DNA of 64,000 bases, from positions 124,001-188,000 of the forward strand of contig QPGO01000096.1 of NCBI GenBank assembly GCA_008632985.1. Direction: 5' to 3'. Numbering within the stretch: the stretch's first letter is position 1; each line of letters starts with the position of its first letter. A model generated the notes under the pieces. It was not told where the DNA came from. It saw only the letters and a program-made list of their open reading frames with translations, and searched no databases. Shown piece after piece: positions 1-64,000 of this stretch. Source of the stretch: Psammoneis japonica (Eukaryota). The translations under genes and the position numbers were made by a program.

Positions 1-1040
1 ACCCATTTGCCGCTGCGTGGCATTGACTGTGTTTTGATGCACCTTCCTCTTTTTGCATGACTGACAGACCTCTCAGACAATGCACACATGCACGCGCACA
101 TGGCATGTGTGGAGTCCAACCCGTTGGCAATTGTGGCGGTGTGAGCAGGTGGAAGAGCTGCCAAACAGCCAAAGCAACCTGATCTTGGCATGCCAGACAA
201 CCAGATGTTTGCTTGGCATTTGCACACAACAAGAAAGAGCTGTCCAAGGGTTGCTTGTGCTGGGGGAATGGCAGCAAAACTGACTCCCAGATGTGCTCAC
301 CACCCATGCAACAAGACAGATGAGAAAATGTTCATGATCCAATGCATTGTGTGCAAAAGTGCACCAAAAACTCATGGGACTTGGCAAAGAAAGGCGCACA
401 CACATGACTTCCTTCGATTCACACCAAACAAGGCCCCACACATGACAGCTCACTTTGTGAGAAGAGACACTTGCTGGGCTGGATTGTCAAGCCCTGGATG
501 GCCCTTCTGCAGGGCACAGCAAGGTGTTGTCTCTCCTGGACAAAAGAAAAAAGGAGGTTGGTTGAGGTGCTGATTTTGCTCTGTGCTTTTGATGCTCATT
601 TGTGGCTCACTTGTCTGGCAGTTGTTTTGCACTGTTGCTCAGTTGGTGTTTTTTGTCTCTGTGGTGTGTTCCCAGCTGTTTTGCACCTGTGCAGTTTCTG
701 ATCATCTTTGTTTGCTGCCAGTGCTGTTTCACATTGTGAGCTTGCTGTCATCTTGTTCTTGATCTGTGGCCCTGATGTTTCAACCTGATTGTGCCAGCCA
801 AGATGCTCCAACTCGTCCTCAAGAGATGTGGCTTCTGCAGCCCATGACTGTGGACATTCTTCTCGCACACAAGCTCCTCTGGCACACCCCTGATCCCCCC
901 CTCAAGACCTGGTTCTTGCTCACATTCAAGCAAAGAAAGATCAGGATACTCTGGCTCTTCTTTGACATCCTTCAGTGCCTCCAATGTCCCCTCAAGACCC
1001 CGCTTGAAGATGTCGAAAAAATTCATCAGCATCATCACGC
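1..1040. other. TpA/CpG-depleted hypermutated block 1 (decayed repeat or gene, family unknown)
   Basis: Reading by eye I find a single TA (947) in the first ~1085 nt. TG/CA-rich. Overlapping ORFs are rich in Cys/His/Trp/Gln and nearly lack Tyr. Confidence 0.85.
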
Positions 1041-1384
1041 GTGACCAGTGCGGTGCCGGAATGCCGCGCAGCGGCTCTGTCGCAACGTAGCTGTAAGGCC
1101 CTACCGCAGTGTAGAGGCGATGTACCATCAGCCGTTGCATTAGATCTCTAGCTAGAGATTCTCTTTTAAGAAAGAGGACCAAGAGGTTTTGAATAATTGG
1201 TGGATGTTTCGATTTCTTGCAGAAAGATGCGCCACCTCTGCTGCGTCCAATGCCACTGAGGACGCAATATGCTTTGAAAATAAATAGAAACATTACACAT
1301 GCAGCAAACTTTAGCCTCTACTCGTACCATGGACAGCGTAATAGAGAACTCCATCTGCGTTACTTCCCCCCATTCATCTTGACG

Positions 1385-3288
1385 TTAACATTCGTTTGCG
1401 TTCTCCCCTACACTCACGGGTAACGATTTGCGCTTACCATTCGGTCCAAGCCAGCTTAACCCTTCTTGTTCAAGTCTCGCGATCCGTTCATCAGTTAGTT
1501 GTGACTTTTTGCCCCTCAGTTTCAGAGAATATTCTTGCCTCTGTTTGCTTACCCATTTTCCCAGAGGCGGGTTTGCGGCATGCGCCTGCGGCACGTTGCA
1601 ATGTCCAAACTCCGCTTTAAATTCCCGCAACTGCTCAAAACGAGCCTCCCAGCCAACACTAGGGGGCTTGAGGCGCCACTGAAAGCCTATTGCATCGAGA
1701 CGCCTTCTTTGCTCTGCGGTGAGGGGTGCAACGCGAAACTTTGTATTCAGGTTTCCTCCCGAAGCCGCAATCATTTCCGAGTGCCTTTTCTTCTCACGTT
1801 GCCACCTGACCCACTCTCCGAGAGAGCTATTACGCTGCGTGGCATTGCAATGCCCGTTAATCTTCTTGAATTTATCAATTCATTGAACTTGTTGTCCCAT
1901 GCCTTGTTCCCTGAATTCCACGAAAAGCCAATCGTGTCCAGAGCCTTGATGCGTTCCTCTGTCATTACATTGTGCTTGTCTGAATCACGATTCGCGTAAT
2001 AATTACACATTTTCGAGACCCAGACCATAAGTGGACCCTCATCAACGTTACAGTGTCCATGCTTTTCTTGGAATTCCTTCAAGCGTTGGTAGTGCATGTC
2101 CCATTCAAAGTCATCAATGGACCAAACAAAGCCAATAAGGTTGAGCTTGTTGATACGTTCCTGCACCGTATCATTATTTTCTTCTGGCAGCTTGTCACCA
2201 TAAAGCCGACGCTGCTCGTTGACCCAGATACCAAGCGGTTCTTGAAGTACGGGCACGTTGCAATGGCCGTTTGCCTCCTTGTATTCTTCGAGCTCTTTAA
2301 AGGACTTGTCCCACTCGTATTGCTCGACATCCCATAGAAAGCAAATGCCATCAAGCTTGTCGATACGCTCTTGGATAGCCGGTTCGTTTTTACCAAACCG
2401 CTTTTTGGCATACTCGTGACGCTGGCGATCCACCCATGACCCGAGTTGTCCCTGTTCCCTTTTCGGCACGTTGCAATGTCCGTGAGTGGACTTGTACTCT
2501 TGCAACTCCTTGAATTTCTCATCCCATTCAAACTTATCCAAATCCCAAATGAATCCAATGCTTTCGAGTACATCAATACGTGCGTTTGTCATCGTATCGT
2601 TGTTGGTTCTTCCAATCTTGACTCGGTAAACCTCTCGCTGGTGGTTTACCCAATCGCTAAGCGGAACCACAGTTTTTGGAACATTGCAATCTCCTTCTTT
2701 CGCCCGATACTTTAACAGCTCAAACAGCATATCGTTCCATGAGGCAGCCGGAAAGTTCAGATTTGGTCCAGCAGGTGGGAATAGCGATGCAGCATCGGCA
2801 GCAGGCCGCTTGCGTGGGTTATCCTTGCCGTTGCCCCATGCTTGCGGCATCGTCACGTGAGGCGGTGGAGGTCCTGGCGGAGCCTGAAACGGAACACCAG
2901 GTGCTATAGGAGGGCCTCTCCAAGGCATCATTGGGTGATAAGGAGGAGGAACATGATGCATTGGTGGGTAGGGAGGTAGATGAAAGAGAGGACTGTTTGC
3001 ATGAGCCGGTGGCGGAGACTGCGTAGCATTTGATCCTGGAGCCTTTGCAGCAGGCGTCGTCGATTCAGCGCCCGGGGATTTTGTACCAGGAGTTTCTTGT
3101 TGAGTTTCACTCGGATTAGCAGCTGCAGCAGCGCTATCCGTAGATTGAGAGGGCTGATTCAACGACGCCGCTGGAGCGGCACTTTCTGAAGCAGTGTCAG
3201 CACCTGAAGCAGTCGCCTTCTTCTTTTTATTAGAGGAGGGACCAGGTGAAGTTTTCGATTTGCTCAGCCGCGCTTTCTTAGGACTCAT
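1385..3288 (-). CDS. Helicase-associated (HA) domain repeat protein with six HA repeats and a Pro/Ser-rich N-terminus
   Basis: Repeats of W..(F/Y)..L..(Y/F)K...GHCNVP...LG.WV..QR...RI..L..IGF.W in ORFs 1771..3357 and 1385..1774, joined by a frameshift near 1870. Start taken at MSPKKARL. Confidence 0.85.
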
Positions 3289-8829: not shown

Positions 8830-10720
8830 CAGCTGCCAGGTCGTGTCATGAGTTTTTCCTTGGGGCAAGTGTTCTCTGTTGGTGACACGCGGTTTCCGTC
8901 ATCTCTCTCTTTCAGCTTTCAGGCGTTTTGTCACAGTCTCAGCACCCAAGCTTCCTTGAAAAAATTGACTTCTCTGGCATGAAGTCATTGTTTCTTGAGA
9001 TCAATTTAGCCAATTTGCAAACTTGTTGTGGTTTGTTGTTTTGAAGAGTGACAACTGTGGCAGCAGCCTCTTGCTTTGTGAGGCTGCAACTCAGTGCATG
9101 TCTCTTTTTTGTTATGAAGTGCAGTTGTCCCTGACTTTAACCCTTTGTTTGAGCTACCAAGCTACCACCACCCATCAAGGTGGTCATTGATGGTGGGTGC
9201 AGAAAGCATGCAAAAAGGTTGCCAGGCACCCCCCTCCTGCTGGGGGAATTCAGGGGCTTCACCCAAGTGTGACACGAAGAGCAAAAATCAATGTGGTGAT
9301 GAGTTCAGTCTAAGAGCCAGCACCTGGCTTTCAGGAGGCACAATGTTGCCCAATGTTTGATGCCAAGCCCAGCTTCTGTCACCTGCTTGTCAGTGGCATC
9401 ATCTGGCATTGACAACAAGCGGCTGGCTTCGCGACAAAATGGTGTGAGAAACCCATCCCATTGCTGGCTCCTTTGAGTGTGCAGGCTCTTTTTGGGTGTT
9501 TCTGCAGCTTTGGCTGAAAATTGTGTGAGCTGTTGCAGCAGGTGACATGCAGCATTTTCTTCCACGGAGCACCACACTCTCCTTCTCACATGCTTTTCCT
9601 TGTCTCAGCTGTTGCAGGCCTTTGAAGTTTGAAGCACCCTGGTGTCACAATTGCAATGATGCCTGCTTGCTTGGATGTGCATGAGAGCCTGCAAAAACAG
9701 GATTGAAGATCTGCCGGTGCAAAAATCCAAAGAAGAAGAGAGCCGCGGCAATTGACAAAAAGAGAGTTGACAGCCCAAAGCAAAAATGAAAGAGTTGTCA
9801 AACACAGCATCTGGTGCCATCCAAACAGCAAACCAGAGTGCTCAGCCTCCAATCGCAGTGGAAAAGTCAGCAAGTGTGAAACAACAAGTGAGCCCAACAA
9901 GGAATGTCAGCCGTGCTTTGTGCACGCTGCTGCCAGAAGGGCCAGCGGTGCCAACAGCTGCTGGCGTGGGGGATTCTTGCTGGTCCATGCCACTGGAGAA
10001 CCACATGTGCACCTGCACATGTTTGCAACCCAGGCTGGCTGAAGTGTCATGTGCAAAGAGACAACATTGCCAACTCCTTGCCAATTTCTGAACAACAGCC
10101 AACCATGCAATGCTCACACCTTTCATTTTTGCTCTTGTTGCTGCCATTGCCATTCTTGTTGTTCAGTCACATGGCAATTGTTCCTGTTTTTGTGTTGATT
10201 GCAAGGAGTGTTGTCTTTCAAATTGTTCAGCAGCACGCCATTGCCTCACCCAGAGACTTTGGATGGGGGGGTTGACCTTCCCCAGGCTGCTGCAGCAGCC
10301 TCTCATGAAGCACTTTTTCAAGCTCTTGTTGTGTGGCAACAGTTGCTGCTGCTCTTCCTGTGGCTTTAAGCCAAACCCCCTTGCCTTGGTGCTCAAATGT
10401 CAGCCCAGATGGCAAGCTGGAGCCAGGGACACCCTTCTTGTGTCAAGCTTGCCTTTTTCTGTGCTGGAGTGCCAGCAGGTTTTGAAGCCACCAGCATTTC
10501 ATCACACAGCTTCAGAGCACAGCTGCAGATGAGCGAGTGTGACATCAATGATGACGCCGCCAGAAGGGCACAGCAACATGGAGAACCAGCTTCACAGCTG
10601 AGCTGACCAGTGGCTCGCAGCAATGTGATGAGTCTCCATCTTGCCCCACACCCACCCTGAAGCTGTGCAGCCAGCTCCTGAGCTTGCAAAATCCAGCTGT
10701 GCAGCCAAAAGCGACGACAC
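8830..10720. other. TpA/CpG-depleted hypermutated block 2
   Basis: A few TA at 9000-9315, essentially none from ~9320 to ~10720. Dense overlapping Tyr-free ORFs. Confidence 0.85.
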
Positions 10721-11039
10721 ATTAACAGGAGCCCCAACCCCCCATTCAGGCTCATTTTGCAGTCTGATCTCACGGCGCAGCCAACTCCGAATGAAAATTC
10801 GCGCGCGGATGATTGATGGAATCGCGGAATCGGCACGTGCTATCCTTCCGACGTCAGTCAACCCAATCGCGCGCCACTTTCAACTTCCACGGGTGACAGG
10901 TGACAGCGACCACTCTCACCCACGCACCCCGTCACTGCTGATCATTCGTTGATGCACCAAAGATCACACGTCAAGTAGGCCCTAACCCGCCATCGCCGCC
11001 TAATTGGGAGCACCAATTCGGTCAGAGACCATAACTGCA

Positions 11040-12593: not shown

Positions 12594-12945
12594 CCCAGAA
12601 ACGGCGACTAAAAACGAGAAGGATGTGTGTGTGTGTGTTGTATGTTGACGGTTGAATAGAATAGATGAAGTTTCAGATGTGTGATTCTGTTGATGAACAC
12701 CGACCCTTAACCTGAAACCAACCTGTTGTCGAGTGAATCACGGATGAAGAGAAGATTGAGTCCCGCTTTCATTCAATGCCACGTCAAACATCCTGTAAAA
12801 GTTCACCCCTGCGTCAGCGTCAGTGGCACTATGGGATGTGGTTGTGTGTGATGTGTGATGATGTCATCACATGCGTTGAGAAGAGAACATTCGTATAAAG
12901 GCGGATACACATGTATGCACAAGTAATCTCCTGCATCCCATGGCA

Positions 12946-14730
12946 CCCCTAAATCTCGAGCCGCCTCGAAGGGACCCCACCAATTGAGCACTTTTGGTGC
13001 TCTGCAGCGCCGCGAAAAAAGCACGCGTCCCAGCAACCTTGCCATGATGCTTTCAGAATGTTCGTCCCCTCCCACTTCCGACGAAGAAGCGACTGACGGT
13101 GCTGATGTTGTCAACCCCACTGCAACAGGCAATGTTGTTGAAATTGCCGTCGCAAGCCCATTGCTTCCAAAATCACACCTTGTTTGCTGACACTCTGTTT
13201 TTTCAGCTCCGCCGCCTGCCGAAGCTTCTGGCATGAATGACAACGCCGCTTCTGCCTTTCCCACATCTGCCACGCCCGAAACGTTTCCCAACCCGGCTGG
13301 TGCAAGAGGCAATGGTGTCGCTTTGTCTCTCATTGGCCCCAAACTGATGAAATCATTTGGTGCCAACTGGCACCATTTTTGTGTTGCTGCGCAGCGCCTG
13401 CCACTCATTCTGTCACCAACACCAACGCAATGACCAATGTTCCAGTGGATGACACCCCCGGTGCCTTTCCTGCTGCGCACGGTCCATCAGGTGATGACAC
13501 ATGTGTCATGCATTGCTGTTGTGTGCCAAAAATGCCAATGGCACTGTTGCACTGTCTCACGCCATTTTTGCTCATGCTCCACAGTGCATGCCACTGCTTC
13601 TGTTGCAAGAGTGGTTCATCAGAAACAATGAGCTGAGGGGAGCAAAACAGAAAGACGGTCCCATGTGCCAACGTTGGCAGGCGATGCATCATCTCCATGA
13701 AGCGTTTCATGTGAGATGGATTCTCGTAGACCTCACCCAAATGAAAGCCAGCAACAGAGCCATGGCTGTGCTGTGGGGAGGCTCTGTGCATTGATTTCCG
13801 GTGCTGGTTGGAGCCAAGCGACAGCAGGGGGACTGCGGCAAGGACAACGCCGCGAGTGCAAACTCCAGCAACATCTCAAACAAGCGATTTGCCACCACCT
13901 GTGGGTCGGACTGGCAGACAAGGTCTGGCGGAACATTTGCGAGAAGACTCAATTGAGCTGGACCTGACCGCGGTCTGCCAACCATGTGGATGCTTGCCAA
14001 AGACGTTGACAGATGCAGTGTCGAAAGTTTGGGAGGCACAGGTCGAAAATGGGTTGTGGCCCGCCATGGTGCAAGCAGTGGCATGCACTGTGGAGCATGA
14101 GTGAAAATGGCGTGAGATGGTGCAACAGCACTGTTGGCATTTTTGGCACACAACAGCAATGCATGATGCGTGTGTTGTTGCCTGATGGACCAGGCGCAGC
14201 AGGAAAGGCACCGGGGGTGCCATCCGCCGCAACACTGGTCACAGCATTGGCGTTGGTGATAAAATCAGTGGCAGGCACTGCGCAGCCACAGAAAACACAA
14301 AGGTGTTAGTTGGCGCCAAACAACTTCGTCAGCATCAGGCTGATGAGAGACAAAGCAACACAACCACCTGTTGCACCAGTCGGGTGAGGAAAGGTTCCGG
14401 GCGTGGCAGCCATGGGAAAGGCAGAAGCGGCGTTGTCATTCATGCCAGAAGCTTCAGCAGGCGGTGGAGCTGAAAAAACAGAGTGTCAGCAAATGAGGCA
14501 TTGTTTTGGAAGCAACAGGGCTGCGACGGCAATTTCAACAACGTTGCCTGTTGCAGTGGGTTAAATGTCATCAGTGCCATCGGTCGCTTCTTCATCAGAA
14601 GTGGGAGGGGACGAACATTCTGAAAGCACCATGGTGAGGTTGTTGTGCCGCGTGCTTTTTTCGCGGTAAAGAGACGGCTGAAAATTGGTCAATTGGTGGG
14701 GTCCCTTCGAGGCGGCTCGAGATTTAGGGG
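12946..14730. mobile_element. Foldback-like element with ~655-bp inverted arms around a decayed RecQ-type helicase fragment (hypermutated block 3)
   Basis: 12946-13599 is the reverse complement of 14073-14730, with termini CCCCTAAATCTCGAG...CTCGAGATTTAGGGG. The spacer reads on the minus strand VRPTGGGKSLV*D...VPLLSLGSNQ...TVFLFCSPQ. Confidence 0.75.
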
Positions 14731-15123
14731 AGAGCATGGTTCAGGATTTTTCCTGCAACTATTGGCATTTGTGTACAAATGTAATTGTCTTTACATTTAT
14801 ACAAATATAAAAATGCCATGACGTGAGCATACATCACCATCCATGACATCACCAACCACACTCTCCACTGACGCAGGGGTGGTAAAAGTTGAAAGTCAGA
14901 CGATGGGAGAATCTTTGCGAATCTTCGCGTCTGGCCTCCCACCGCACAACAAGCAAGAAGAGAACGCGAAAACAAAAACCAACCAACATCGATCACGACC
15001 GACAACACCAAAACAACGACAGTGTCATACACTCGACATTAAGCAACAACGAAACACAACAGCCATAACAAAGGCGATTCATTTGTTTGAACTTTTCCTT
15101 ACCATACGATAGAAAGTCCCACA

Positions 15124-15645: not shown

Positions 15646-15662
15646 GTGGCAATCCTTACTTT

Positions 15663-21859: not shown

Positions 21860-23760
21860 ATGCATCTTCACATTTCACACCAAGCACCAAAATGACAATT
21901 TTTTTGACAGGACGATGGAGAACAACGAGACAACAATGTGGGGTTGGAGTGGTTCTCGCCATTTGTGACACTCAGTGTGTGAAAGCAGATGCCATGGGTC
22001 AATCGAACACAAGAGGCAAAATGGCCACAGACCAGCCAAACTGCTTGTTTTGCATCTGAGATTTTCTCACAAACACATGAATGGCTTTCATGTGTGTGGC
22101 TCCCATTGCCGCCGTTGCACATGATGTCGCCACACATTCCGTTGTAACCAACACAGCATTGGCGAGACTCATCATTGCTGTGGTTGGAGAGCCATGGGAC
22201 ACCATCTCACAGCCTCTTTTTTGTCTCATGCCCATCAGCACACAAGCAAGAAGCAGAGAAGCAGTGCCAGGCGCGCAACAACACGGTGGTTCAAACACGA
22301 AGTGCCAAGCTGACAAAACATGCCAAAAAGTTGTTTGAGGTGCTTGCTGCAAGTCAAAAGAAGGTGCTTCCATGCAGCGACAAGGAGCTCATGACAGCTC
22401 TTGTCAACACAACAGATCCAGAGAAGAGTCCGTGACACTTCAAGTTTCCTGGGGCCAGTGCCGCCGGCACGTTGCTTGGTGAAGGTGGCTGTGGGTCATC
22501 AGCAGAGTGTCTCATTGTGAGTCTGGATGCGAAGTGTCGCTCAAAGGGATCAGCATGTTGAGTCAGTGTTGTTGGCATTGTGCAAGACAACAGATTGAGC
22601 CACAGGCTTCTTTTGACCATCCAGGTGTGGTTTGTTTGCATGGGTGGCATTTCTGTCCCACAGCGGATTTCAGCGATGCCCCACGCAGCTCAGAAGAAAG
22701 TGACACCAATTCAGCAAGTGATTGGAGCTCAGAAGAAAGCAGCAACAGCATGCTCGCTTTCTTGCTTCAAAGCAGAAGATGCCAGTTTCCCAAAGCATTC
22801 ACCACAATTTTGATCTTGGAGCTCTGCCCCAATGGCTCCTTTGATGATCTCCTCCTCTCAAAAACTGCTGCCTCAAGGAGAGAAAGACATCACTCACCAC
22901 ATGGAGAGCATTGCCTCCTCGATGCATCTCTGCTTGCGCACTCAGTGCAAAAAGTCATTCATCGAGATGTCAAGCCCTCAAACATCTTGCTGGTGGCCAG
23001 TGGAGCACCAAAGATTTTGGACTTTGGCTTTTTCTGGTTAGAGACCCAAAGCCCAGTTGCTTTTCACTCTGTCAAACTTCTGGTTTTGGAGCTCCTGAAG
23101 TCACGAAAGTTGGGTGTTGCAAGGATTTGGAAGGACCGGGTCATGACCAGCATGTCAACTTGTGGAGCCTTGGCATCACTGGTTGCTGCCTCTTGGTGGA
23201 CAAGTTGCCATTTCCAATCTCTGACCTTGAAGTCTCTCAACACACCTCATTGGCTTTTCTGGAAAAATGTGCTCTCCACACCAGGAATTTGGTGTGTGTC
23301 GTGCTCAGGCCAAAGACAGCAAAAAAGAGAGTTGATGGAGAAAGCGTTGCAGCAACCCCATTTTTGTCAAAACCTTCATTTTTTAACACTTTTTTGTGAG
23401 ATTGGCCTGAGGTGGGCCAGGAATGGCTGCTTCAGGCTGGAAGCCTTGGACTTGAAGCTCCCTCAGCTTGAATTTCCTCCTTTTGTGTCTGAGGGTGCCA
23501 AAGACTTTTTCTGGGGGCGGTGGTCTGTTGCAGGCCAACCCAGGGGATTGCAGCATGTCCTTGGACAACATTCCAAAGCACCCCTGGATCCAAAACTTCA
23601 GCAAGAAACAAGTTTGCAGGACAAATGACTTTGGTGGAGAGAGAAAGAGTGTGGCAGGGCACAAAACTGTGAAAATGGTTGGTTTTTGAATGAAGCCACA
23701 TTTTCAATTTGCGAGACGACGACAGTGCAATGGATGCATGCTTTCAACACTGAAAGATTG
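21860..23760. other. TpA/CpG-depleted hypermutated block 4
   Basis: TA very rare. The 373-aa ORF 22507..23628 contains no Tyr. Confidence 0.85.
22440..23628 (+). pseudogene. Ser/Thr protein kinase pseudogene (Aurora/CAMK-like)
   Basis: LGEGGCG, HPGVVCLHG, IHRDVKPSNILL, DFG, APEV, VNLWSLGI, KLPF, FPPFVSEGAKDF, KHPWI spread over several frames. Confidence 0.8.
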
Positions 23761-27392: not shown

Positions 27393-27439
27393 GTATGGCA
27401 CTGACGTAGGCTCCTACCAAATCCAAGGAACATGAAACC

Positions 27440-30800: not shown

Positions 30801-31039
30801 CCACGTAACTTGACATTCATCTGAGAACTCATCGCAAAAATTCCAAATTCCAAAAGCCAACAAGCGCGCTCGTCCGTCCACCGACCGCAGCATGACCAGC
30901 ATCATCGCACGACCACCGCAGTTTCCATGATGAATGACATGACCGCAGTGCATAGTCTAGTCTAGTCGATGCTCTGCTAAGCATCTCCGACGAGACCTCA
31001 ATAACTGGTTGCAATTTTCGAACAGAGCATTCAAATCCA

Positions 31040-40981: not shown

Positions 40982-41199
40982 ATCTTTTGAATCCGTGTCA
41001 TTTTTGTGAAGCTATTGTGACTTTAAAGTAATAGTGCTTGTTTTGGTTGTGTTTGAGATTTCCAACTACAATGCATGAGCTACAACACATGAACTAGTTA
41101 CATGAATTTCGAAACAATGGATGCCTCCACTGTAGTCGGCTGTCCAAATGAAAAATAGTTTCTCTGAAAGGGCTTTCAAGGCTACAAGCCTCTTTTCTT

Positions 41200-44100
41200 T
41201 AATGCCCTCCCAGCTCCTCATCATGGCAGGAAACTTCATGCTTTTGACACGGAATGGACGCCTTTGGGCACCCATCCTTTTTTTCCACCTGCTCTGCTAT
41301 GTTGTGCTACAAGTGCTCTGCCTCTTTACATGTTGGGGCTGGGTTGGGTGGTGGTGTAGTGGTTGCACAGCTCAAGCTCGGTCCCACAGTGAACTCATGT
41401 CGCAAGGAAAGGTGTGTTGCTTGGGAGGCATTCTTCCGCAAAGACTGCACAGCAAATGACACAATTGTCAGCATGGATCAGTTTTTGCAACAACACACAG
41501 TCTTCTTCATGCACCACAAGGCCAGCAATTTCCACTGGCATGATTTTGGTGCTTGCATCCTCAGCTGCCGGTGCTGCAAAATTCCTTGCCAGGAGCATCA
41601 GTCAAAGTTGTTTCAGGACTGCCATCCCAGGCGCCTTCAGTCAAAGTTCCTGGTGTGGGAATGCACCCACTCCACTCCTGCCAGCACCTTGACACCTGTT
41701 GTCATGGCCACCACCTCCTCCAAATCTCCTGCTGGCACCCTGTCACACCAACCCCAATGCGCCCACTGTCATGGCAGTCAACATCAGCTGCTCACCCACA
41801 GCCTCAGGTGCACGTGTGTTTCTGGTGTGCAACCTCTCACACTTGTTGTGTCACCCTTCTCAGGTGGCTTTGTGCTGGGTCTCACAGGACAGTTTTGGCC
41901 ATTTCTGCCAATGGCACACCCTCATTTCAGCATGACAAACAACAGCTCTTTCAGAGAATGAGAAACACATGCATCAACGCCTTGTGGCCCACATGCTTGT
42001 TGTCCTTTCTGGCAATTTTTTGCAGATTCTGCCAATTTTTGACACAGGGTGCAGCACCTGCTCTGTGTGCTTCTGAAACAATCGCCCACAACCGCTTTGT
42101 CAAATTTCTGAACTGCTTTCATCCACACACATCTCAGCCCTCGATGCTCTCTTTGTTTCTCTCCCATTGGCCAACGGGCCAATTGTTCTGCACTTTGTGT
42201 GTTGCAAGATCTGTCTCTGTTGTGGCACTTGTGAGTGTGCACCAGAAACACCCTTCTTCATTGCCCTTTGATGGCCATTCATCTGCTGCATTGATTGGTG
42301 CTTCTGCACAAGATCTGGTGTTGTTTCGGCTCATGGGAAACATTTCCACTGATGCCCAACTCACTTGTCATTAGACTCTCCTTTTTGCACTTGCCAGCTC
42401 TGAACAACCCTGCTCTTGCTTTTGGCTTGTCAAGCTCTCACTGCTTCAAGTGGCAAACCTTTTGCTTTCACTCCAGCACCCAGAAGTGCCAAGCTGAGTG
42501 TGTTTCTGTTGAAGGCAAGGTGTTTTGTTGGTGGCGGCAATGTTTTTTCCAAGATCTTGCAACATTTTTGCAACCCATTCTGAGTGCAACTGTCCTTTGC
42601 TTTCATTTTGTGGATCTTCCAGCATGTCCAATCCAAAAGAAAGCAACAACCACCTTCTTCCCATGTGTTGTCAGTTTGTTCCAACCAGTTGTCTCTGGCG
42701 GGCACCACTGCAAGGCAGCAACATGACTGGCCAACTGCACCAGCCTCTCCTGCATCCCCAGTGGGGTGAGCTGGAAGTGTGGGTCAGCCGGCGCAGCTGG
42801 GCAACAAAGGTGCAAGAGAGCTGCAAACTGGGTTTGAGTTTTTTTTTGCTGTCAGTGCATGCTGGTGCAGGGTCATCCATGTCCACAGGGAGGCTGCAAC
42901 TTCATCCATGCCCTCCATTTCTCCAGCAACTTCTGGAGCTGCTGAGGCCAGCATGCTCGCTGCTTTTGTTGCAAGAGTTGTGGCTGTGTTTGTTTTGTAA
43001 ATCTTTTCAGCCCATGTCACTTTTGTGAAGCCACTGTGACTTCAAAGCAACGGTGCTTGTTGTGGTTGTGTGTTTGAGATTTTGCCAACTGTGGTGCATT
43101 GTGAGCTCCAGTTGCATGATTTTGAAACAATGGATGCCTTCACTCTCAAGATCACTGTTCAAACAAAAATGGTTTCTCTAAAAGGGCTTTCAAGGCTGTG
43201 TGCCTTTTTACTTTGACACCACTCTTCAGCTCAGCATCGTCACAGCAGGAAGCTTCATTGTTTTTTGTGACCCCCTTTGGCAGTTGACCATCCTTTGCCA
43301 CCTGCTCTGCTGCCATGTTGCACAACATTGCTCTGCCTTTTGATGTGTTGGGGCTGGGTTGGCGGCAGTGTGGGTGGCTGCACAACTTGAGCTTGGCTCC
43401 CCACTGGAAACCCATGTCACAAGAAAAGGTGAGTTGCTTGTGAGCTGCACTTTTCCAAAGACCACAAGTGTGGATCAGGTTTGGCCACAATTCACAGTGC
43501 ACTTTGTGCACAACAAGGCAGGCAATTCCCGCTGGCACAATTTTCAGTGTTTTTGCATTGTCAGCAAGCTGCTGGCACCACCAACAATTGTCTTGAGAGC
43601 CTTCAGTCAAAGCTCCTGTGGCGGGAGTTCTGTCCAAGATGCCTCCCCGATTGTTGCAACCTCTGAATCTCCCACTGGCTTCCCATTGCCTGTCACCATG
43701 GCTGCCACCTCCTCCAAATCTCATGCTGGTGGCACCCCATCAACTGCCCCAGCACCTGTGCCGTTGTGGCTGTGGGTGCAGGGACACCCATGCTTTTCGA
43801 AGCAGCTGTGACTTCATCTGTGCCTTCATTTTTTCCAATGACTTCAGGAGCTGCCAATGCTGGTGTGCTTGCTGCTTTCATTGCAGCAGTTGTGCTTCCT
43901 CACCTTTTTTTGAATCCTTGAGCCTGTGTGCTGCTCTTTTGTGAAGCTGTTGTGTGGCTTTGAAGCAACGGTGTTTGTTTTGGTTGTGTGTGTTTGAACT
44001 TGCCAGCTGCAGCGCCAGCTGCATGAATTTTGAAACAATGGATGCGCCCACCTTTCTGATCCACTGTCTGAAGGAAAATGATTTCTTTCCCAAAGCTCAA

Positions 44101-44440
44101 GGCAGCTCGGTTGAGAAAGCTGCTTTGTTGCAGCTGTGCATTGTTGCAGTGGACCATGGAGCAGTTTTGCTGCTGATGGCTTGACAGGAGAGCCCTGCTC
44201 TCTGCTCTCTGGACGACACTGCTGCTCTGGAGAGCCATGGTCACACCTCACACAGACAACACATCTGCTCTGTTGGCATCTTTTTTTCACATTCATTTTC
44301 ACTTGATTTGCCAATGGCACATCGGCCCAACAATGTGCTCAGTTGTCTCATGCAACATGTTTCTGGGGGTGTGCTTTCTCTCTGCCTGCTCTGTGCTCTC
44401 TGCAGCAGATGGAGCAGTTGCTGCTGTTAGCTCGACAGAG
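41200..44440 (+). repeat. Hypermutated block 6: degenerate tandem copies of the fasciclin 3' end plus flank, with a ~1 kb unrelated insert
   Basis: 40500-41540 realigns to 41540-41800 + 42860-43530 and to 43540-44060, with TA/CG replaced by TG/CA. Confidence 0.85.
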
Positions 44441-51630: not shown

Positions 51631-51863
51631 NNNNNNNNNNNNNNNNNNNNNNNNNNNNNNNNNNNNNNNNNNNNNNNNNNNNNNNNNNNNNNNNNNNNNN
51701 NNNNNNNNNNNNNNNNNNNNNNNNNNNNNNNNNNNNNNNNNNNNNNNNNNNNNNNNNNNNNNNNNNNNNNNNNNNNNNNNNNNNNNNNNNNNNNNNNNNN
51801 NNNNNNNNNNNNNNNNNNNNNNNNNNNNNNNNNNNNNNNNNNNNNNNNNNNNNNNNNNNNNNN
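51631..51863. other. Assembly gap (233 N)
   Basis: Run of N. Confidence 0.99.
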
Positions 51864-53600
51864 GTGCTTCAAAGAACTGTTTCAGCCACAACAGGAATGA
51901 GATCTCTGACTTGAATGACATCATCATCAAGAGCAACATGACACACCACACAGTCTGTCGCCTGCTCAAAATCCAACTTTTCCAAGGAGATTGAATCACT
52001 TTGATGTCAGCCTGATCTGTGAATTGACTTGTCAATGTGAGCCTGCATTGTTTGTTTGATCCATCAAATGGAAGATGCCAAGCAAGTGCTGCTGAACATC
52101 CATGCTGGGCTTGCCAGCAGAATTCCCAGACTTGTCAAATCCACATGTGGCAAATTCCCATTGCACTCTCTGGTGGGGCAGCAGGCTGTTGCAGAGCACT
52201 TGCTCACTCCCATTGAGAAACAGAGCAAAAACTCAGGAGAGTCTTTCACAGTTGACAAGCCTTTGTTTTTTTCTTCTCCTTTTTGAAGAGATTTTTTTGA
52301 ACAGCCATGGTCAAAATTGTTGCCACCATTCTTGTCAGACCAATCATTCTTCTTCAAGCTCACTGACAAGGCCAGGAAAAAGGAAATTGAGAGCTCTGCT
52401 TGAGATGAGTGTCTGTGTCAGAGGGCACTCTCAACTTGGCAGCATGCATGTGTGAGCCAACAGCTCAGCAGGAGGTGACAGCAAACCCAGCCAACAGAGT
52501 GACAAATCTAATCATTGCCATTGCGGTCAGAGTGGCTAGGCAGCATCTCTCACAACTTGGCTTGTGACTGCGCACTGGGAAAGATGGCTGGGGTCTTGCT
52601 GCTTGTTGTTTCATCCCAAGGGGCTGGAGGCAAACAAGGTGTTGTGGCACACAAGGAAGAGAAGCTGTCCATTCTCAAATGCAAAGTTGGCACAAAGGCC
52701 ATTTCAAACAGTGGCTGAGCTTTGAAGAGCAGTGCTTGTTCTGGCTCAGGCTGTCCAAACATTGCACTGTCATGCAGTCTTCATCAGGAAAGAGCCTGGT
52801 TTTGTTTGCTGCCTTCAGCTTCTGGCAGAAGCTGCAAATGCTGGTGTGACTGACAGTGCTTGGAGGCTCAGTTTCTCCAAGTGGGAGCAAAGCACCTTTG
52901 GCACATCGCCGTCTTTTGCAGCCTTCAGCATTGAGGATGCTTCTTTTGTGAAGGCTTGTTCTTTCTCTTCAGGGCCTCACTTCAAGTCCACATGCACTCA
53001 TGTTCATGCAAGCTGGGGTGAGGAGGATGAGAGATGAGAGCTGAGCCAGATGTCACACCTGCTTTCGAGCCCCCAAAGGCTCGGGTGACATGGTCGACAT
53101 GCTGCATCCTGCATCATTTGCTGCCAGCAAAGAACAAAAGCAAACACCAATGCCAACCTGGCTCTAAATCTGAAGAACTCTCATCAAAAAGAAGGAAAAT
53201 CAATCACAAATGACAGCTTGTCATGACATGCCAAACAATGAAAACACACACCACAAAGTGCCTGCAGCAGGCATCCCTGCCGCAGCCACCAATGACACTG
53301 CCGTTGCTGTGACAGCGCAGGTGCAGAAGGAGCACATGGTGCTGCACAGAATGCCTGTCACACAACCCGCCAGCAAGAAATCACACAGCACCTCCACACG
53401 CTGTGACAAAGAAAGTGTCGCAGCTCCTGTCAGAGGCAACACACAGATCCTGGCCACATCACACCTAAAATGACCCCAGTGGTTGCCAAATCTGTGGCCA
53501 CAGACATGAAAAAAGCGGAAGAATTTTATGTGTGATTGTTGGGATTGTGAGATGTGGTCGGAAGCAAGTTGGCTGGGGAAGTCTCCCCCAAGCATGTCCG
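51864..53600. other. TpA/CpG-depleted hypermutated block 7
   Basis: TA rare, TG/CA excess, overlapping Tyr-free ORFs. Confidence 0.85.
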
Positions 53601-58019: not shown

Positions 58020-60600
58020 TTTGGTGTCAGATTGTTTCAGAGCACCTCATTTTTCCTTGCTCTGAAACATTGTGTTTTTGCTGCTGAGTCATTGAGTTGT
58101 TGTTGTTGGAAAGGCTGTTCTTTTGCCAATTGTGCATCATGATGGGCTCTGCCTCCTCTGAAGCAGCACTCGCGCTGCCTGTGAGAACACGAAATCACAG
58201 CAAAACAAGTTTTTGCATTGCCCAACTTTGACCAAGGTGCTGAGGCCTTTTGCAAACATGCATTGTTTCAAGAGGGTCACAATCATCAACAATGCCAGCA
58301 GGATCGGTGTCGTGTGAAGGCGTTGGTGCAGAGTTGTGAGACATCTTGATGAGGTGGGGCGATGTGACATGTTCTTTTGTTGCCGTGGTGTGAGAGGCAA
58401 AAACTTGCTGTTTTTCATCCTCCCTTTGAGGTGACTTGAGAACAAGGGGAGGACATGGTTTGTGGTTTTTTGTGGCACTGTCGGTGTTTGTGTGCAAATG
58501 CACAATGAAGTGGACTGAAAGATGCGCGCACAAAAATTTTGTGATGCGAACATTTCATTGCCATGACATCTCAAACTGCGTTCTCCACTTGCAAAGGGAT
58601 GTTGTGTTGAGCCCTGAAGACAGTCTTTTTGGCTTGTGTGCAGTTGACAAAACTGCTGCCATGGCTGCCAGCACATGTTGGGCATCACACCACATTTTGT
58701 CTCCTTCAGCTGCCTTGTCATTGCAAGGAGCAAGAGAGTCACAGCTCTCCATTGCTTTGCATGCATCAAAGAAGCCCAAGTTCAAGAGTGCTGCTTGTGG
58801 ATTTCTCGCTTGTTGGGAGCTGACCTCTGGCAATGCAAGACAAGCTGAGGCATCATTGCATGGTGACAACATCATGCAATGCCCTTGTTTCTTTGCACCT
58901 TTGAAAGTGTTGGCAGCAGTGGCAGGGGTGATTTTGTTTTGCACGCATCTGTGCCATGACCAGAGCACTCCCCATGTGTGCATTTGTGGGTGGTGGCAAG
59001 TTGTCTTTGTTTTCATTTGTGGCTGTGGCCTTCTTCATCACCCCAACACTGTTTTGCATGTCATGCAAACTGCAGGCACACTTTGTCCAAAGAATGGAGC
59101 CACCTGCTGGTCACTGCCCTTCACAGTGCATGTCAGCACAAATGGTTGCTTCAACACAAAGGAGGTGCTGAAAAGGCTTTCTGTCATTCTCTGACATCCT
59201 TGATGACAGCATGCTTTGTTCATGCTGGTCTTGCTGCTCTCATTCACTGTGGCAGTGTGCAAGCAAAACAAGTCTCAAATGAGTTGTTTTTTGGCACAGA
59301 CCTCTGACCAGCATGCAAGCAAGCCATGAGTGCTGTCAATGTCAGGCTGAAGTTGCGCAGATTTGGCAGTATCCCAAGCAAATGTGCCAAGATGAAAATG
59401 AGTTCCAGATCAGAAGTGGCTGAAATCACAGCCATGTCTTGTCTCTTCACATTCTCTTCTTCCCAAGAACAAGTCAGAGAGCAACATCTGCACAGAGAAC
59501 AAAGTGGCAGGCTGCCTCTCCTGATGCTGTGCAACAGCACAGGAGCTGCAAGTGGATGACAAGGGGGGTCCTTAATGAAGAAGACACTCTGATGCAACCC
59601 CCACAAAGATGCAATCTGTGAGCAGATTTTCTCTTTCATTGATCCCAGCCCAACACAGCAATGCCACATGACATGCAGGCAAGAACAGACAGTCATCCAC
59701 AACTCTGTGCATGCACAGACTCAGAGCAAACATCACCTCCTGCAGCAATCACATGTGCACACCAGTGCAGACAAATGTCACTTCCACACTTGATGAGAAA
59801 GAACAAAATCTGTGGGCCATGGCAACAAGTTTGCTGCAGTTGTTGCAGTCTTTGCACTTCACTGTCCTTTTCAGATTTTGTGCATTTTAGGGGACTTGGC
59901 TGCGCCACTCAACTTGGTCAAGGGCATGTGTTTTGAAATGTTCCAACTGACCCATGACTTGCCCACATCTGCTGCCACCATGTTGGGACCTTGTGGACCA
60001 CTTGTTGAAGATTTGACAAAATGGTTGACTTGGTTGGGTGGAGTCATGCTGCAGGTTGATCCAGGGCCAAAGCTCGCAAAGAAATGAGCTCAGTTTGCTC
60101 ATCTGGAATTTGGTGTTGGGGATTTCCTGTGGTGCTGGTGAACTTGCCATCCAACCAAGATTGAGACAAGATTGTGCAGGGCTAGCTCCTCTTGGTGAGG
60201 GTTGACAACAGGGTGGCCAAGAAGACTGGTCTTCTCTTGGTGACACAATGTCTGGACACATGGGCACCTTCATGATGTCCTTGATTTGCTGACTGATGTT
60301 GTCAAGAACAGTGTTGTAGGAGACTGCATTGAAATGGGTGTTTGAAGGGGAGGCTCTTTGATTTTTGCATGTGCCATCTCACATGCAGGCAAAGAATCGA
60401 ACAAAATGTGTTTGTGATTCTTTTTGTTGGGGACTGCTGCCTCCACCTCAATTTTTGTCAAGTTGTCGCTGGGACAGTGACTGTTCGTGCATGCAATGAT
60501 TCAACAGCATTGTGAATCTGTGACAGTCTCACCAGGAGCAATGCCGCTGCAACAATGACATGACAGAAGATGAAAAACTGACAACTGGCGGCTGCCCAGT
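58020..60600. other. TpA/CpG-depleted hypermutated block 8, probably a decayed minus-strand gene or transposon ORF
   Basis: TA nearly absent. Protein-like remnants in ORF 58555..59016. Confidence 0.8.
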
Positions 60601-62539: not shown

Positions 62540-62829
62540 TGTTGATGTGCTTTAAGAGCGAGAAATGTTGTAGTGCAAGCCGAGTTTAGCCACAGTTTCA
62601 TCGCCAATCGCAACCAGAATCTAACCACAATTTGAAATTGCAGCAGACAACTGGGTGTCAGGTGTCAGCCGACCGTTTTGTGACATGCCGTGTGGAGCGA
62701 GCGAGCGTGGCGACATACATGCGACATCTCTATCGTGGTTGAAGATTCGCTCGGTTGGGGTGAGATTCATTTGAATCGCGACTCGATTGGCTTGCACGCC
62801 GTCTTGTCAGCACAGTGACGCAAGGATGT

Positions 62830-64000
62830 CAAATTACACAAACCCATTCCTAGAATGATCCATGCCCCAGATGCAGCTCCCAAGACTTGATGCATGCATT
62901 TGTTGGCTGTGGTGCAAGCTCCTCCTGTTGCTGGAGCATGGCCGACAAGTCGCAACCTGGCACAGCTCATTTTGTGGAGATGACAGAGAAAAGAGGAGCA
63001 GCAGCGGAGGGGTGCCCTGAATTTGACCAAAATGTTTGAGGCTGCAGGCCTTTGGCACAGCAGTCATGTTGACAGGGATGTTGATGGTTGTCCAGTTGAC
63101 GCATTTTTTTGGGTTGTCCACAGGGCTCTCTGGGGCTTGGACATTCGAACACCACACTGGAGCCACCGCATGGTCAGCGAAAGCTTTGATTTTCTCTCAC
63201 ACATGATTGATCACCTCAGCATGTGATTGCAGTGTTTCAAAAATTTTTTGCTTGTTGAAAGAAGATGGGAACCCATCCAATTCTAACTTGGCAATGTGTC
63301 TGCCTGGCTCAGATTCGTGCTGTGGCATGTTGTTTGGAGAAGGAAGAATTCACTCAACTTGGACTTTTTGCAAAGAACAGAGGCAACAAAAGAGACCTTG
63401 TTTCTGAACATGTTGTTTGGAAAAGGAAGAATTCACTCAACTTGAACTTTTTGCAAAGAACAGAGGCAACAAAAGAGACCTTGTTTCTGAACATGGTGAG
63501 AGATGTTGAGAAGAGCAAAAGCTTTCCGACAATGAGCAGCCAACTTTGCTGCCCATTCTGCGGCTGCTGAGACAGGTGTTGTTGGATCAGCAAACAATGG
63601 TGCATTTTGGGTGCCTGGATGTTCTTGCAGGCAAGGAGAGTCATTTTTTCGACAGAACAATGTCCAAAACCCCGCAAAAAATGCTCGTGGCATCCATGAA
63701 TGACCATTGCCAGAAGCAAAGGGCAGGCTGGAGTGGCAACAATCCCGTCAGCAAAACACGTGCTCTTAAAATGCAATGAACAGCCCAAACAATTTTCAGC
63801 AAACACAACACAGGAACAGAAGGGAAAAAATGCAAAGGAGACCCTTGGTGAGCTGACAAATTGGCTGGCTGACTTTGACATGTGCTCATTCCCCCAAACG
63901 GCATCTCGAGCCTCTGGCACAGGTGTCACGGCCATTTCTTTCTTTGTTCCCACCATTTTACATTGAGCTGCTTGTTGCTTTGCCATGGCCAAACAACACT
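62830..64000. other. TpA/CpG-depleted hypermutated block 9
   Basis: TA nearly absent. Runs off the window end. Confidence 0.85.
63326..63495 (+). repeat. 83-bp direct tandem duplication (2 copies)
   Basis: CATGTTGTTTGG(A/G)...GACCTTGTTTCTGAA at 63326 and 63409, differing by two G/A transitions. Confidence 0.85.

What the first reader, a model, noticed from the sequence alone, without database searches (positions are those of the whole stretch)
1..64000. Domain-restricted erasure of BOTH TpA and CpG to TpG/CpA: a candidate undescribed 'reverse-RIP' hypermutation system
Seen: nine bounded blocks (~1-1040, 8830-10720, 12975-14660, 21860-23760, 28320-30800, 41200-44440, 51864-53600, 58020-60600, 62830-64000) have almost no TA (one in the first ~1085 nt) and few CG, while adjacent genes and spacers use both freely. 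Where identifiable, the blocks hold duplicates, a foldback element and pseudogenes. Established: CG->TG/CA follows deamination of 5mC (diatoms methylate repeats at CG, via DNMT5). Fungal RIP does the opposite to TA: it creates TA from CA/TG. Inference: a second targeted process drives T:A->C:G transitions in TpA in the same silenced domains. Candidates are adenine methylation or deamination in TpA, thymine oxidation (TET/JBP-type, 5hmU/5fU), or error-prone repair recruited to methylated chromatin. I know of no description of this, but cannot search the literature.
Basis: partly seen in the sequence, partly recalled or inferred. Interest (0 to 1): 0.92.

Follow-up and report, generated by a model that had tools for sequence, protein, structure and literature searches.

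The report
TA- and CG-erased silent DNA blocks
About a quarter of this diatom-like genome window consists of bounded blocks of dead or mobile DNA in which nearly every TA and most CG dinucleotides have been turned into TG or CA, the footprint of a targeted hypermutation so far reported only in a chlorarachniophyte alga.

Summary
Nine blocks (16,745 nt, 26% of the window) hold 41 TA (obs/exp 0.04), against 1,845 TA in 47,005 nt outside (0.58). CG obs/exp is 0.25 against 0.96, and TG/CA rise to 1.75/1.85. Pyrimidine-purine steps total 24.2% inside and outside, so TA and CG were converted to TG/CA by transitions.

Direction is visible. A fasciclin gene's unmutated 3' end has two degenerate copies inside a block. 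Its 34 aligned TA sites became 21 TG, 8 CA, 2 CG, 3 other and 0 TA.

Contigs of a public DNA run reproduce part of one block without a substitution, so an assembly-only artefact is unlikely.

The blocks are unrelated to each other: a mobile foldback element, a kinase pseudogene, tandem gene-end duplicates and six stretches of unknown origin.

The TpA half is no longer undescribed. A 2026 preprint shows TpA-to-TpG/CpA hypermutation of integrated viruses in Bigelowiella natans. I found no report in diatoms, none of near-complete TA erasure, none with non-viral targets and none with co-located CpG decay.

The best reading is silencing-targeted adenine deamination at TpA plus 5mC deamination at CpG. 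The enzymes are inferred. Interest 0.78.

The parts
1..988 (.). Block B1 (open at the window start): TA/CG-erased DNA of unknown origin
   Evidence: 1 TA against 38.8 expected; 10 CG against 54.2. Right edge: TA change-point 1088, CG 1001. No Pfam hit in 8 ORFs.
8913..10876 (.). Block B2: TA/CG-erased DNA of unknown origin, filling the space between two ORFs
   Evidence: 9 TA against 77.1 expected; 37 CG against 107.7. Change-points: TA 8813/10976, CG 8925/10712.
12771..14887 (.). Mobile foldback element; its interior 13025-14567 is block B3
   Evidence: Inverted arms 12946-13599 and 14073-14730, 84% complementary. Word depth 520-810 against about 57 for unique flanks. One contig joins 12770 to 14888, skipping 2,117 nt. 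Interior: 4 TA against 60.6 expected but 65 CG against 84.6. The outer ends still carry TA.
21925..23698 (+). Block B4: protein kinase pseudogene
   Evidence: Pfam Pkinase in two different frames (E 1e-10 and 2e-6). The HRDVKPSN and DFG motifs lie in one frame and APE in another. 3 TA against 69.6 expected; 31 CG against 97.3. Word depth 51-64, i.e. single copy.
28464..30853 (.). Block B5: TA/CG-erased DNA of unknown origin
   Evidence: 9 TA against 93.8 expected; 28 CG against 131.1. X1 contig record 4 matches 28506-29662 with 0 other letters. A second contig at the same place differs by 114 letters plus 72 gap letters over about 1 kb. The 270-aa ORF has 0 hits among 1.84 billion representatives.
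40700..41200 (+). Unmutated source copy: 3' end and downstream flank of the fasciclin gene (ORF 39860-40981)
   Evidence: Pfam Fasciclin E 5e-31. Keeps TA and CG. Aligns to two copies inside B6.
41428..44351 (+). Block B6: degenerate tandem copies (offsets about 2,016 and 2,928 nt) of the fasciclin gene end and its downstream DNA
   Evidence: 4 TA against 114.8 expected; 30 CG against 160.4. Copies at 42716-43230 and 43640-44100. tblastn of the fasciclin ORF hits the block.
51864..53427 (.). Block B7: TA/CG-erased DNA directly after an assembly gap (N run 51631-51863)
   Evidence: 3 TA against 61.4 expected; 14 CG against 85.8. N run.
58023..60564 (.). Block B8: TA/CG-erased DNA of unknown origin; holds the longest TA-free run (1,445 nt)
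   Evidence: 5 TA against 99.8 expected; 22 CG against 139.4. TA-free run.
62936..64000 (.). Block B9 (open at the window end), with an 83-nt tandem duplication at 63326-63495
   Evidence: 3 TA against 41.8 expected; 18 CG against 58.4. TRF: 2.0 copies, 97% matches.

Best explanation
The blocks are stretches of non-genic, silenced DNA: a mobile foldback element, a dead kinase gene, decayed tandem duplicates and unidentified inserts between active genes. Two transition processes act inside the same domain boundaries.

Track 1 converts TpA to TpG or CpA. Most likely this is enzymatic deamination of adenine to inosine in DNA, on either strand, by a TadA/ADAT2-type deaminase, as proposed for Bigelowiella natans. 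It runs nearly to completion.

Track 2 converts CpG to TpG or CpA by deamination of 5-methylcytosine in DNMT5-type methylated DNA. It is roughly ten times slower.

Both tracks end at TG/CA, which neither attacks, so the sequence freezes in a TA-free, CG-poor state that destroys reading frames. Active transcription units next to the blocks are spared, so the trigger is more likely chromatin or silencing state than sequence repetition.

Shown: the composition, the direction of change, the TpA and CpG specificity, the shared boundaries and the different kinetics. Inferred: the chromatin trigger, methylation of the blocks, and both enzymes.
For: (1) Mass balance. TA+CG+TG+CA is 4,052 of 16,745 dinucleotides (24.2%) in blocks and 11,366 of 47,005 (24.2%) outside. 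The TA and CG lost equal the TG and CA gained, and G+C is unchanged (0.49 against 0.48).

(2) Polarity. The parent 40700-41200 was compared with two in-block copies. Its 34 aligned TA sites became 0 TA, 21 TG, 8 CA, 2 CG and 3 other. Its 26 aligned CG sites became 2 CG, 9 TG, 8 CA and 7 other.

(3) Context. Transitions hit 33 of 74 A/T bases in TpA against 44 of 340 elsewhere (OR 5.4, p 6e-9). They hit 19 of 54 C/G bases in CpG against 45 of 309 elsewhere (OR 3.2, p 7e-4).

(4) Independent resolution. At the same ancestral site one copy has CA and the other TG. The foldback arms show 18 TG<->CA doublets against 0.5 expected from background transitions.

(5) Kinetics in the foldback arms. About 33 ancestral TA sites are almost all lost. 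Per-arm CG loss is 0.29, and background transitions are 0.028 per base per arm. TpA is therefore roughly 50x background and CpG roughly 6x. Across blocks, 3-12% of expected TA is kept against 16-77% of expected CG.

(6) Shared domain edges: 16 edges, TA and CG change-points 21-530 nt apart.

(7) Real sequence. An X1 contig at depth 37 matches 28506-29662 with 0 substitutions. Among the 40 of 693 variant rows shown, 12 of 13 inside blocks are transitions in pyrimidine-purine steps against 8 of 26 outside (p 4e-4). Two of them are TA kept in other copies.

(8) Precedent. In B. natans 230 of 231 de novo mutations in two silent viral inserts are A>G/T>C, all at TpA. There are 124 TpA-poor/CpA+TpG-rich clusters, and a low-TpA CDS subgroup has mean TpA frequency 0.0018 (here 41/16,745 = 0.0024). 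An ADAT2-like deaminase is proposed.

(9) DNMT5a loss removes methylation in a diatom (abstract and passages of PMC9998398).
Against: No methylation, chromatin or expression data for these blocks could be obtained. No genome is held, so no deaminase, DNMT or TET/JBP gene could be sought.

T>C on one strand equals A>G on the other, so sequence alone cannot say which base is attacked.

The polarised test rests on one parent segment of about 500 nt assumed to be ancestral. In those old copies, background transitions are already 13-15%, so that comparison alone demands only roughly a ten-fold excess.

The library type of run X1 is not on record, and X1 may be the data the window was assembled from.

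The foldback family is multi-copy in a TA-free form. Part of its state is therefore inherited, not acquired at this locus.

B. natans shows no CpG component, so the two tracks may be unrelated neighbours rather than one system.
Confidence: 0.7

Rival explanations
1. Same targeted TpA erasure, but the attacked base is thymine. A TET/JBP-type oxidation (5hmU/5fU-like) in TpA within silent chromatin mispairs with G and gives T>C.
For: Sequence cannot separate T>C from A>G on the opposite strand. TpA is palindromic, and both outcomes occur at the same sites. I recall, from no call, that dinoflagellate 5hmU is enriched at TpA.
Against: No call gives any evidence for modified thymine in diatoms. The B. 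natans authors favour adenine deamination. I recall that the natural target of ADAT/TadA, A34, follows the invariant U33, which predicts a TpA preference without extra assumptions.
Confidence: 0.12
2. A true repeat-induced process. Duplicated DNA is recognised by homology, as in fungal RIP, and then mutated. Blocks that now look unique were repeats when they were hit. Diatom DNMT4, a relative of fungal RID, could serve the CpG half.
For: B6 is a set of tandem duplicates, B3 is a multi-copy element and B9 carries a tandem duplication. Diatom DNMT4 groups with RID and has no known function (passages of PMC9998398).
Against: The duplicated parent segment 40876-41200 keeps its TA and CG. B4 and B5 have single-copy word depth. 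No block resembles another block or any other part of the window. The hypermutated NCLDV insert of B. natans is single-copy.
Confidence: 0.1
3. Sequencing or base-calling artefact. Dense base modifications in silent chromatin are misread, so TA and CG are really present.
For: The window has a scaffold gap next to one block. The library type of the supporting run is not on record, and that run may be the assembly's own data.
Against: Word-graph contigs of run X1 at depth 37-57 reproduce block sequence. One has 0 substitutions over 1,157 nt. Symmetric misreading of a palindromic step would give conflicting strands, not clean contigs (inference). The copies also differ from the parent by indels and transversions: 14 and 31 transversions, 10 and 14 gap blocks. 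The erased sequences carry real decayed homology (kinase motifs).
Confidence: 0.04
4. Selection rather than mutation. TA and CG are avoided in these stretches because something cuts, inserts at or senses them, for example a TA-specific nuclease or transposase, or RNA-level sensing of UpA/CpG.
For: The foldback element spreads in a TA-free form while its outer ends keep TA.
Against: The blocks include a frameshifted pseudogene and decayed duplicates with no detectable function. There is no purine/pyrimidine period-3 signal in 7 of 9 blocks, against 11 of 12 genes with signal-to-noise of 4 or more. The exact mass balance and the random TG-versus-CA outcome at the same site in sister copies fit neutral mutation.
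Confidence: 0.04

Closest known systems
TpA-targeted hypermutation of integrated viral DNA in the chlorarachniophyte Bigelowiella natans (Mettrop et al., bioRxiv 10.64898/2026.01.13.699255; abstract, Results and Discussion read; supplements closed)
   Same: A:T>G:C transitions only at TpA, giving TpG/CpA on either strand. Confined to bounded, silent regions. Leaves TpA-poor, CpA+TpG-rich clusters, with residual TpA frequency of about 0.002 in the most affected sequences.
   Different: A different supergroup lineage (a stramenopile-like diatom against a rhizarian). Erasure here is nearly complete and covers 26% of the window. The identified targets are a foldback element, a host-type pseudogene and duplicates of a host gene, not recognisable viral DNA. 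CpG is erased in the same domains, whereas the preprint never mentions CpG. No de novo rate is measured here.
Repeat-induced point mutation (RIP) of filamentous fungi
   Same: Irreversible, domain-wide transition hypermutation that kills duplicated or mobile DNA and skews dinucleotide content. A possible enzyme link exists through the DNMT4/RID relatives of diatoms.
   Different: The direction at TA is opposite: RIP makes TpA from CpA and lowers G+C, while here TpA is destroyed and G+C is unchanged. Both copies of a repeat are not hit here. No link to meiosis is known.
Methylation-driven CpG decay (5mC deamination) in methylated repeats, as in vertebrates and in methylated diatom transposons
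   Same: CpG>TpG/CpA. CpG obs/exp about 0.25 in the blocks against 0.96 outside. Rate about 6x background in the foldback arms.
   Different: It explains only half of the pattern. It never removes TpA. Methylation of these blocks was not measured.
Deaminase editing of retroelements and viruses in animals (ADAR A-to-I on double-stranded RNA; APOBEC3 C-to-U on cDNA)
   Same: Hypermutation by deamination as a defence. ADAR prefers a 5' U, i.e. UpA (as cited).
   Different: Those act on RNA or on single-stranded cDNA and leave strand-asymmetric marks in retro-copies. Here both strands are hit in place, in DNA-level tandem duplicates and in a DNA foldback element.

Membership tests
B. natans-type TpA hypermutation of silent DNA | Changes are A>G/T>C at TpA, giving TpG or CpA | tested here: met
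   34 parent TA sites became 21 TG, 8 CA, 2 CG, 3 other and 0 TA. Transitions hit 33 of 74 A/T bases in TpA against 44 of 340 elsewhere. There are 18 TG<->CA doublets between the foldback arms.
B. natans-type TpA hypermutation of silent DNA | Confined to bounded regions that are TpA-poor and CpA+TpG-rich | tested here: met
   Nine blocks with TA obs/exp 0.04 and TG/CA 1.75/1.85. Edges are sharp to within a few hundred nt.
B. natans-type TpA hypermutation of silent DNA | De novo rate orders of magnitude above the rest of the genome | not testable with these tools
   There are no mutation-accumulation data. Indirectly, the rate is roughly 50x background transitions in the foldback arms.
B. natans-type TpA hypermutation of silent DNA | Targets are integrated viral or other foreign DNA that is transcriptionally silent | tested here: inconclusive
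   The identified contents are one mobile foldback element, one kinase pseudogene and one set of host-gene duplicates. Six blocks have no hit: of 81 ORFs in Pfam, 2 hit Pkinase and 1 is a weak hit. Searches gave 0 hits. No RNA run is listed.
Fungal RIP | C:G>T:A transitions, mostly CpA>TpA, raising TpA and A+T | tested here: not met
   TpA is erased, not made. G+C is 0.49 in blocks against 0.48 outside.
Fungal RIP | Triggered by sequence duplication; all copies are mutated | tested here: not met
   The duplicated segment 40876-41200 keeps its TA and CG. B4 and B5 have single-copy depth. The blocks are unrelated to each other.
Fungal RIP | Depends on a RID-type cytosine methyltransferase homologue and acts before meiosis | not testable with these tools
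   No genome is held. Diatom DNMT4 is RID-related but of unknown function.
Methylation-driven CpG decay | CpG>TpG/CpA with local CpG deficit | tested here: met
   CG obs/exp is 0.25 against 0.96. Of 26 parent CG sites, 17 became TG or CA and 2 were kept.
Methylation-driven CpG decay | 5-methylcytosine present in the affected domains | not testable with these tools
   No bisulfite, EM-seq or nanopore data are available here.
ADAR/APOBEC editing of retro-copies | Strand-asymmetric editing of an RNA or cDNA intermediate | tested here: not met
   Both TG and CA outcomes occur within each copy. Per-block (TG-CA)/(TG+CA) is -0.09 to +0.10. The copies are tandem and adjacent to their source.

The most novel reading that the evidence does not exclude
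Diatoms run an enzyme-driven genome defence that marks non-genic or foreign DNA by chromatin state. It then erases every TpA by deaminating adenine in double-stranded DNA, alongside 5mC-driven CpG erasure. The same TpA system operates in chlorarachniophytes, so it would be an old, widespread SAR-lineage or even pan-eukaryotic immunity module. It would also be a natural TpA-specific DNA adenine editor, and it may shape a large share of diatom intergenic DNA.
Probability: 0.35. Interest if true: 0.9.

Novelty: new variant of a known kind. Interest (0 to 1): 0.78.

Why it matters
If this is real, it would extend TpA-specific hypermutation, so far reported from one chlorarachniophyte preprint, to what looks like a diatom. 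That makes an old, shared defence more likely than a lineage oddity.

It shows the end state of such a system: DNA with about 0.2% TpA, no Tyr codons and no TAA/TAG stops. Plain dinucleotide windows can find this state in any assembly.

It also shows that the system is not limited to viral inserts and that it shares domain edges with CpG decay. That ties it to the silencing machinery and gives an easy handle for finding the trigger.

There are practical consequences. Gene finders will call long false ORFs in these blocks. Homology searches fail on them unless purine/pyrimidine coding is used. Silenced transgenes in diatom engineering may be mutated. The enzyme, if it acts on double-stranded DNA, would be of interest as a natural adenine editor.

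Tried and rejected
- **Whole-genome search:** none is held, so no genome-wide windows and no search for deaminase, DNMT or TET/JBP genes were possible.
- **Metagenome scan with the AsnA protein, to collect other diatom contigs:** 590 relatives were found and 80 loci kept. Only L001 (1.4 kb) and L002 (2.5 kb) are diatom-like at 72-73% identity. The other 78 are 45-51% identical and look bacterial. The scan was useless for testing other diatoms.
- **Identity of the blocks:**
  - Pfam on 81 block ORFs of 90 aa or more gave 2 Pkinase hits and 1 weak CK_II_beta hit (E 0.006, below cut-off).
  - phmmer of the 270-aa B5 ORF against 1.84 billion representatives gave 0 hits.
  - Word-seeded searches of the 276-aa B6 ORF and the 381-aa kinase ORF gave none.
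  - ORFs of 240 aa or more: 5 seen against 1.8 expected by chance, because only TGA stops remain. ORF length is therefore no evidence of coding.
- **Searches for repeats among blocks:**
  - A purine/pyrimidine 28-mer search gave only the B6 and B3 relations plus chance-level singles.
  - tblastn of 230 non-block ORFs against the blocks hit only fasciclin against B6, plus an edge overlap at B7. blastn of blocks against blocks gave only internal repeats.
- **Purine/pyrimidine period-3 signal:** weak in 7 of 9 blocks. It does not prove they never coded.
- **Expression:** no RNA holder is listed.
- **Coverage by the other runs:** run X2 has no cover on 22006-24006 or 28676-30676, and X3 has none at all. 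A part without cover is no evidence.
- **Earlier notes of this scan:** nothing for this genome or for these words or this sequence. One unrelated phage TA desert turned up.
- **Literature:** no diatom report was found with the searches. PMC4504042 matched 'tpa' only through the word 'Tpase'.
- **Considered and rejected:**
  - GC-biased gene conversion: it is context-free, would raise G+C and cannot remove CpG.
  - ADAR editing of hairpin RNA followed by retro-copying: the elements and duplicates are DNA-level.
  - 6mA deamination: wrong context and wrong chromatin.
  - Low complexity.

Full report
**1. What the window is**

The window is nuclear DNA of a diatom-like alga.
- An AsnA gene (34622-35848) is 72-78% identical to diatom proteins. 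Named hits are Nitzschia inconspicua (76%) and Thalassiosira pseudonana (74%).
- Neighbouring ORFs carry HA, WD40, SET, DEAH-helicase, rhamnosidase, ABC, fasciclin, SAP and TauE domains. That HA-domain expansion is typical of diatoms is recalled, not tested.
- No whole genome is held for this window.

**2.

- Sliding 500-nt windows show nine stretches with TA obs/exp of 0-0.2, CG of 0.0-0.8 and TG and CA of about 1.5-2.5. Genes and ordinary spacers between them have TA 0.3-1.4 and CG 0.7-1.4.
- TA-free runs reach 1,445 nt, against a median TA-to-TA distance of 17 nt.
- Pooled, the blocks (16,745 nt, 26% of the non-N window) hold 41 TA (obs/exp 0.04) and 255 CG (0.25). The rest (47,005 nt) holds 1,845 TA (0.58) and 2,578 CG (0.96).
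- TG and CA rise from 1.20/1.17 to 1.75/1.85.
- Per-block Poisson p values for the TA deficit are 6e-16 to 1e-43.
- The blocks are not simple repeats. Ordinary intergenic DNA is not TA-poor: obs/exp is 1.44 at 33751.

**3. The composition is a product of transitions**

- The four pyrimidine-purine dinucleotides together make up 24.2% of dinucleotides both in blocks (4,052 of 16,745) and outside (11,366 of 47,005). G+C is the same (0.49 against 0.48).
- So what TA and CG lose, TG and CA gain. This is expected if TA and CG were changed by transitions that keep the purine/pyrimidine pattern.
- The smaller shifts are the by-products expected from changing the T or A of TA and the C or G of CG. These shifts are GC up, AT down and GA/TC down.

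**4. The direction can be read**

- The fasciclin gene at 39860-40981 and its downstream flank (to about 41200) keep normal TA and CG. Two decayed tandem copies of this segment lie inside block B6, at offsets of about 2,016 and 2,928 nt.
- The parent's 34 aligned TA sites became 21 TG, 8 CA, 2 CG and 3 other in the copies; none is kept.
- Its 26 aligned CG sites became 9 TG, 8 CA, 7 other and 2 kept. TG and CA sites mostly stay as they are.
- Transitions struck 33 of 74 A/T bases in TpA against 44 of 340 elsewhere (OR 5.4, p 6e-9). They struck 19 of 54 C/G bases in CpG against 45 of 309 elsewhere (OR 3.2, p 7e-4).
- At single ancestral sites the two copies took different routes, CA in one and TG in the other, as expected from hits on either strand.
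- Caveats: the parent is assumed to be ancestral; the sample is about 500 nt; and these copies are old (13-15% background transitions), so this comparison alone needs only about a ten-fold excess.

**5. Two processes with different speeds**

- The arms of the foldback element in B3 (12946-13599 and 14073-14730, 84% alike) differ by 18 TG<->CA doublets, where 0.5 are expected from independent background transitions.
- About 2 of the 18 doublets can come from CG. That implies about 33 ancestral TA sites, almost all lost independently in both arms.
- CG shows 21 conserved and 17 singly changed sites, a per-arm loss of 0.29. Other positions differ by transitions at 0.028 per base per arm.
- TpA therefore decayed roughly 50 times faster, and CpG roughly 6 times faster, than background.
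- Across blocks, 3-12% of expected TA is kept but 16-77% of expected CG.
- The two deficits nevertheless share their edges: at 16 boundaries the TA and CG change-points lie 21-530 nt apart.
- Residual TAs are enriched in TAA/TTA context: 41 of 82 strand-symmetrised trinucleotides, against a 21% share outside the blocks. This hints at a flanking-base preference.

**6. What the blocks are**

- They are unrelated to each other.
- **B3** is the interior of a 2,117-nt foldback element that is multi-copy (word depth 520-810 against about 57). One contig of the same run lacks it, joining 12770 to 14888, so it is or was mobile. Its outer ends keep TA.
- **B4** is a protein kinase pseudogene. HRDVKPSN and DFG lie in one frame and APE in another.
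- **B6** holds the fasciclin-end duplicates.
- **The other six blocks** gave nothing. Apart from the two Pkinase hits, Pfam gave only a weak CK_II_beta hit in B7, below cut-off, among 81 ORFs. Three sequence searches found no relative. Long ORFs there are expected by chance, because only TGA stops remain.
- Seven of nine blocks lack the purine/pyrimidine period-3 signal that 11 of 12 genes show.
- The blocks fill whole gene-to-gene intervals, leaving about 100-450 nt of normal sequence next to the flanking ORFs.
- The duplicated gene end itself is spared. Together with the single-copy depth of B4 and B5, this argues against a homology trigger and for a silencing or chromatin trigger. That last step is inference.

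**7. The sequence is probably real**

- One public DNA run of the same coded organism holds 72% of the sampled words of 21001-31000.
- Its contigs cover all 30 bins of 12001-32000. One contig (depth 37) matches 28506-29662 with no substitution. A second contig at the same place differs by 114 letters and 72 gap letters over about 1 kb. It is either the other haplotype or a paralogue.
- Differences between the run's contigs and the window are 477 transitions to 173 transversions.
- Of the 40 of 693 variant rows shown, 12 of 13 inside blocks are transitions in pyrimidine-purine steps, against 8 of 26 outside (p 4e-4). At 13620 and 13803 other copies keep TA where the window has CA or TG.
- This fits a process that continued after the copies separated.
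- The run's library type is not on record, and it may be the assembly's own data. Independent confirmation is still needed.

**8. Comparison with what is known**

- **The B. natans precedent.** In mutation-accumulation lines of Bigelowiella natans, two silent integrated viral regions mutate at about 6e-7 per site per generation. 230 of 231 changes are A>G/T>C, and all of these fall on TpA. The genome has 124 TpA-poor/CpA+TpG-rich clusters, and an ADAT2-like adenine deaminase is proposed (bioRxiv 10.64898/2026.01.13.699255; abstract, Results and Discussion read; its supplements are closed). That text mentions neither diatoms nor CpG.
- **Literature searches.** Seven full-text searches found no report of this pattern in diatoms.
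- **The CpG half.** Diatoms methylate transposons through DNMT5a, and they carry DNMT4 proteins related to fungal RID whose function is unknown (PMC9998398, abstract and passages). This fits the CpG half.
- **6mA.** Eukaryotic 6mA sits at ApT in active genes, does not deplete its target, and is absent from P. tricornutum (passages). This weakens the 6mA idea.
- **Fungal RIP.** It works in the opposite direction at TA and hits all copies of a repeat, so this is not RIP.

**9. Verdict**

The core inference, a second, TpA-specific T:A>C:G process in the same silent domains as CpG decay, is supported by sequence evidence.
- Most likely mechanism (confidence 0.7 for the process, much less for the enzymes): silencing-targeted adenine deamination at TpA plus 5mC deamination at CpG. 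Both converge on TG/CA.
- The finding is a new variant of a kind described once, in another lineage. What is new: the diatom-like host, near-complete erasure over a quarter of the window, non-viral targets, the coupling to CpG loss at shared boundaries, and relative rate estimates.

Noticed in passing
window 12771-14887: The 2,117-nt foldback element is an insertion polymorphism. One contig of run X1 joins 12770 to 14888 with 25 other letters between. The outer roughly 170 nt on each side are TA-rich, while the interior has almost no TA. It is either a nested insertion or element ends kept by selection for mobility.
   Followed up: partly
window 28506-29662: Two X1 contigs lie on the same stretch of block B5. 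One is identical to the window and the other is about 11% different with many indels. Most long pieces shown over the flanking genes differ by 0.1-0.5%. This may mean the blocks are hypervariable between haplotypes, or it may be a paralogue.
   Followed up: no
window 51631-51863: A 233-N scaffold gap abuts block B7 directly, so erased blocks may be hard to assemble.
   Followed up: no
window 39860-40981 and 46473-47728: Two fasciclin-domain genes lie about 7 kb apart, 64% identical over 701 aligned nt. The first has a 51-nt coding tandem repeat at 40687-40841 and an unusually strong purine/pyrimidine period-3 signal of 68.
   Followed up: partly
window 33751-34250: A spacer upstream of AsnA has TA obs/exp of 1.2-1.4 and G+C of 0.41-0.47. 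It is the opposite extreme to the blocks and a useful internal control.
   Followed up: no
window 12251-12950: The 5' part of the SET-domain ORF (11673-12737, minus strand) next to the foldback element has TA obs/exp of 0.2-0.35 and TG of 1.5-1.9, with normal CG and CA. This could be codon usage or leakage of the TpA process into a gene.
   Followed up: no
all blocks: Because TAA and TAG are gone, block DNA gives long ORFs in all six frames. The mean is 36 codons and five ORFs have 240 codons or more. Automatic gene callers would predict tyrosine-free false proteins here.
   Followed up: partly
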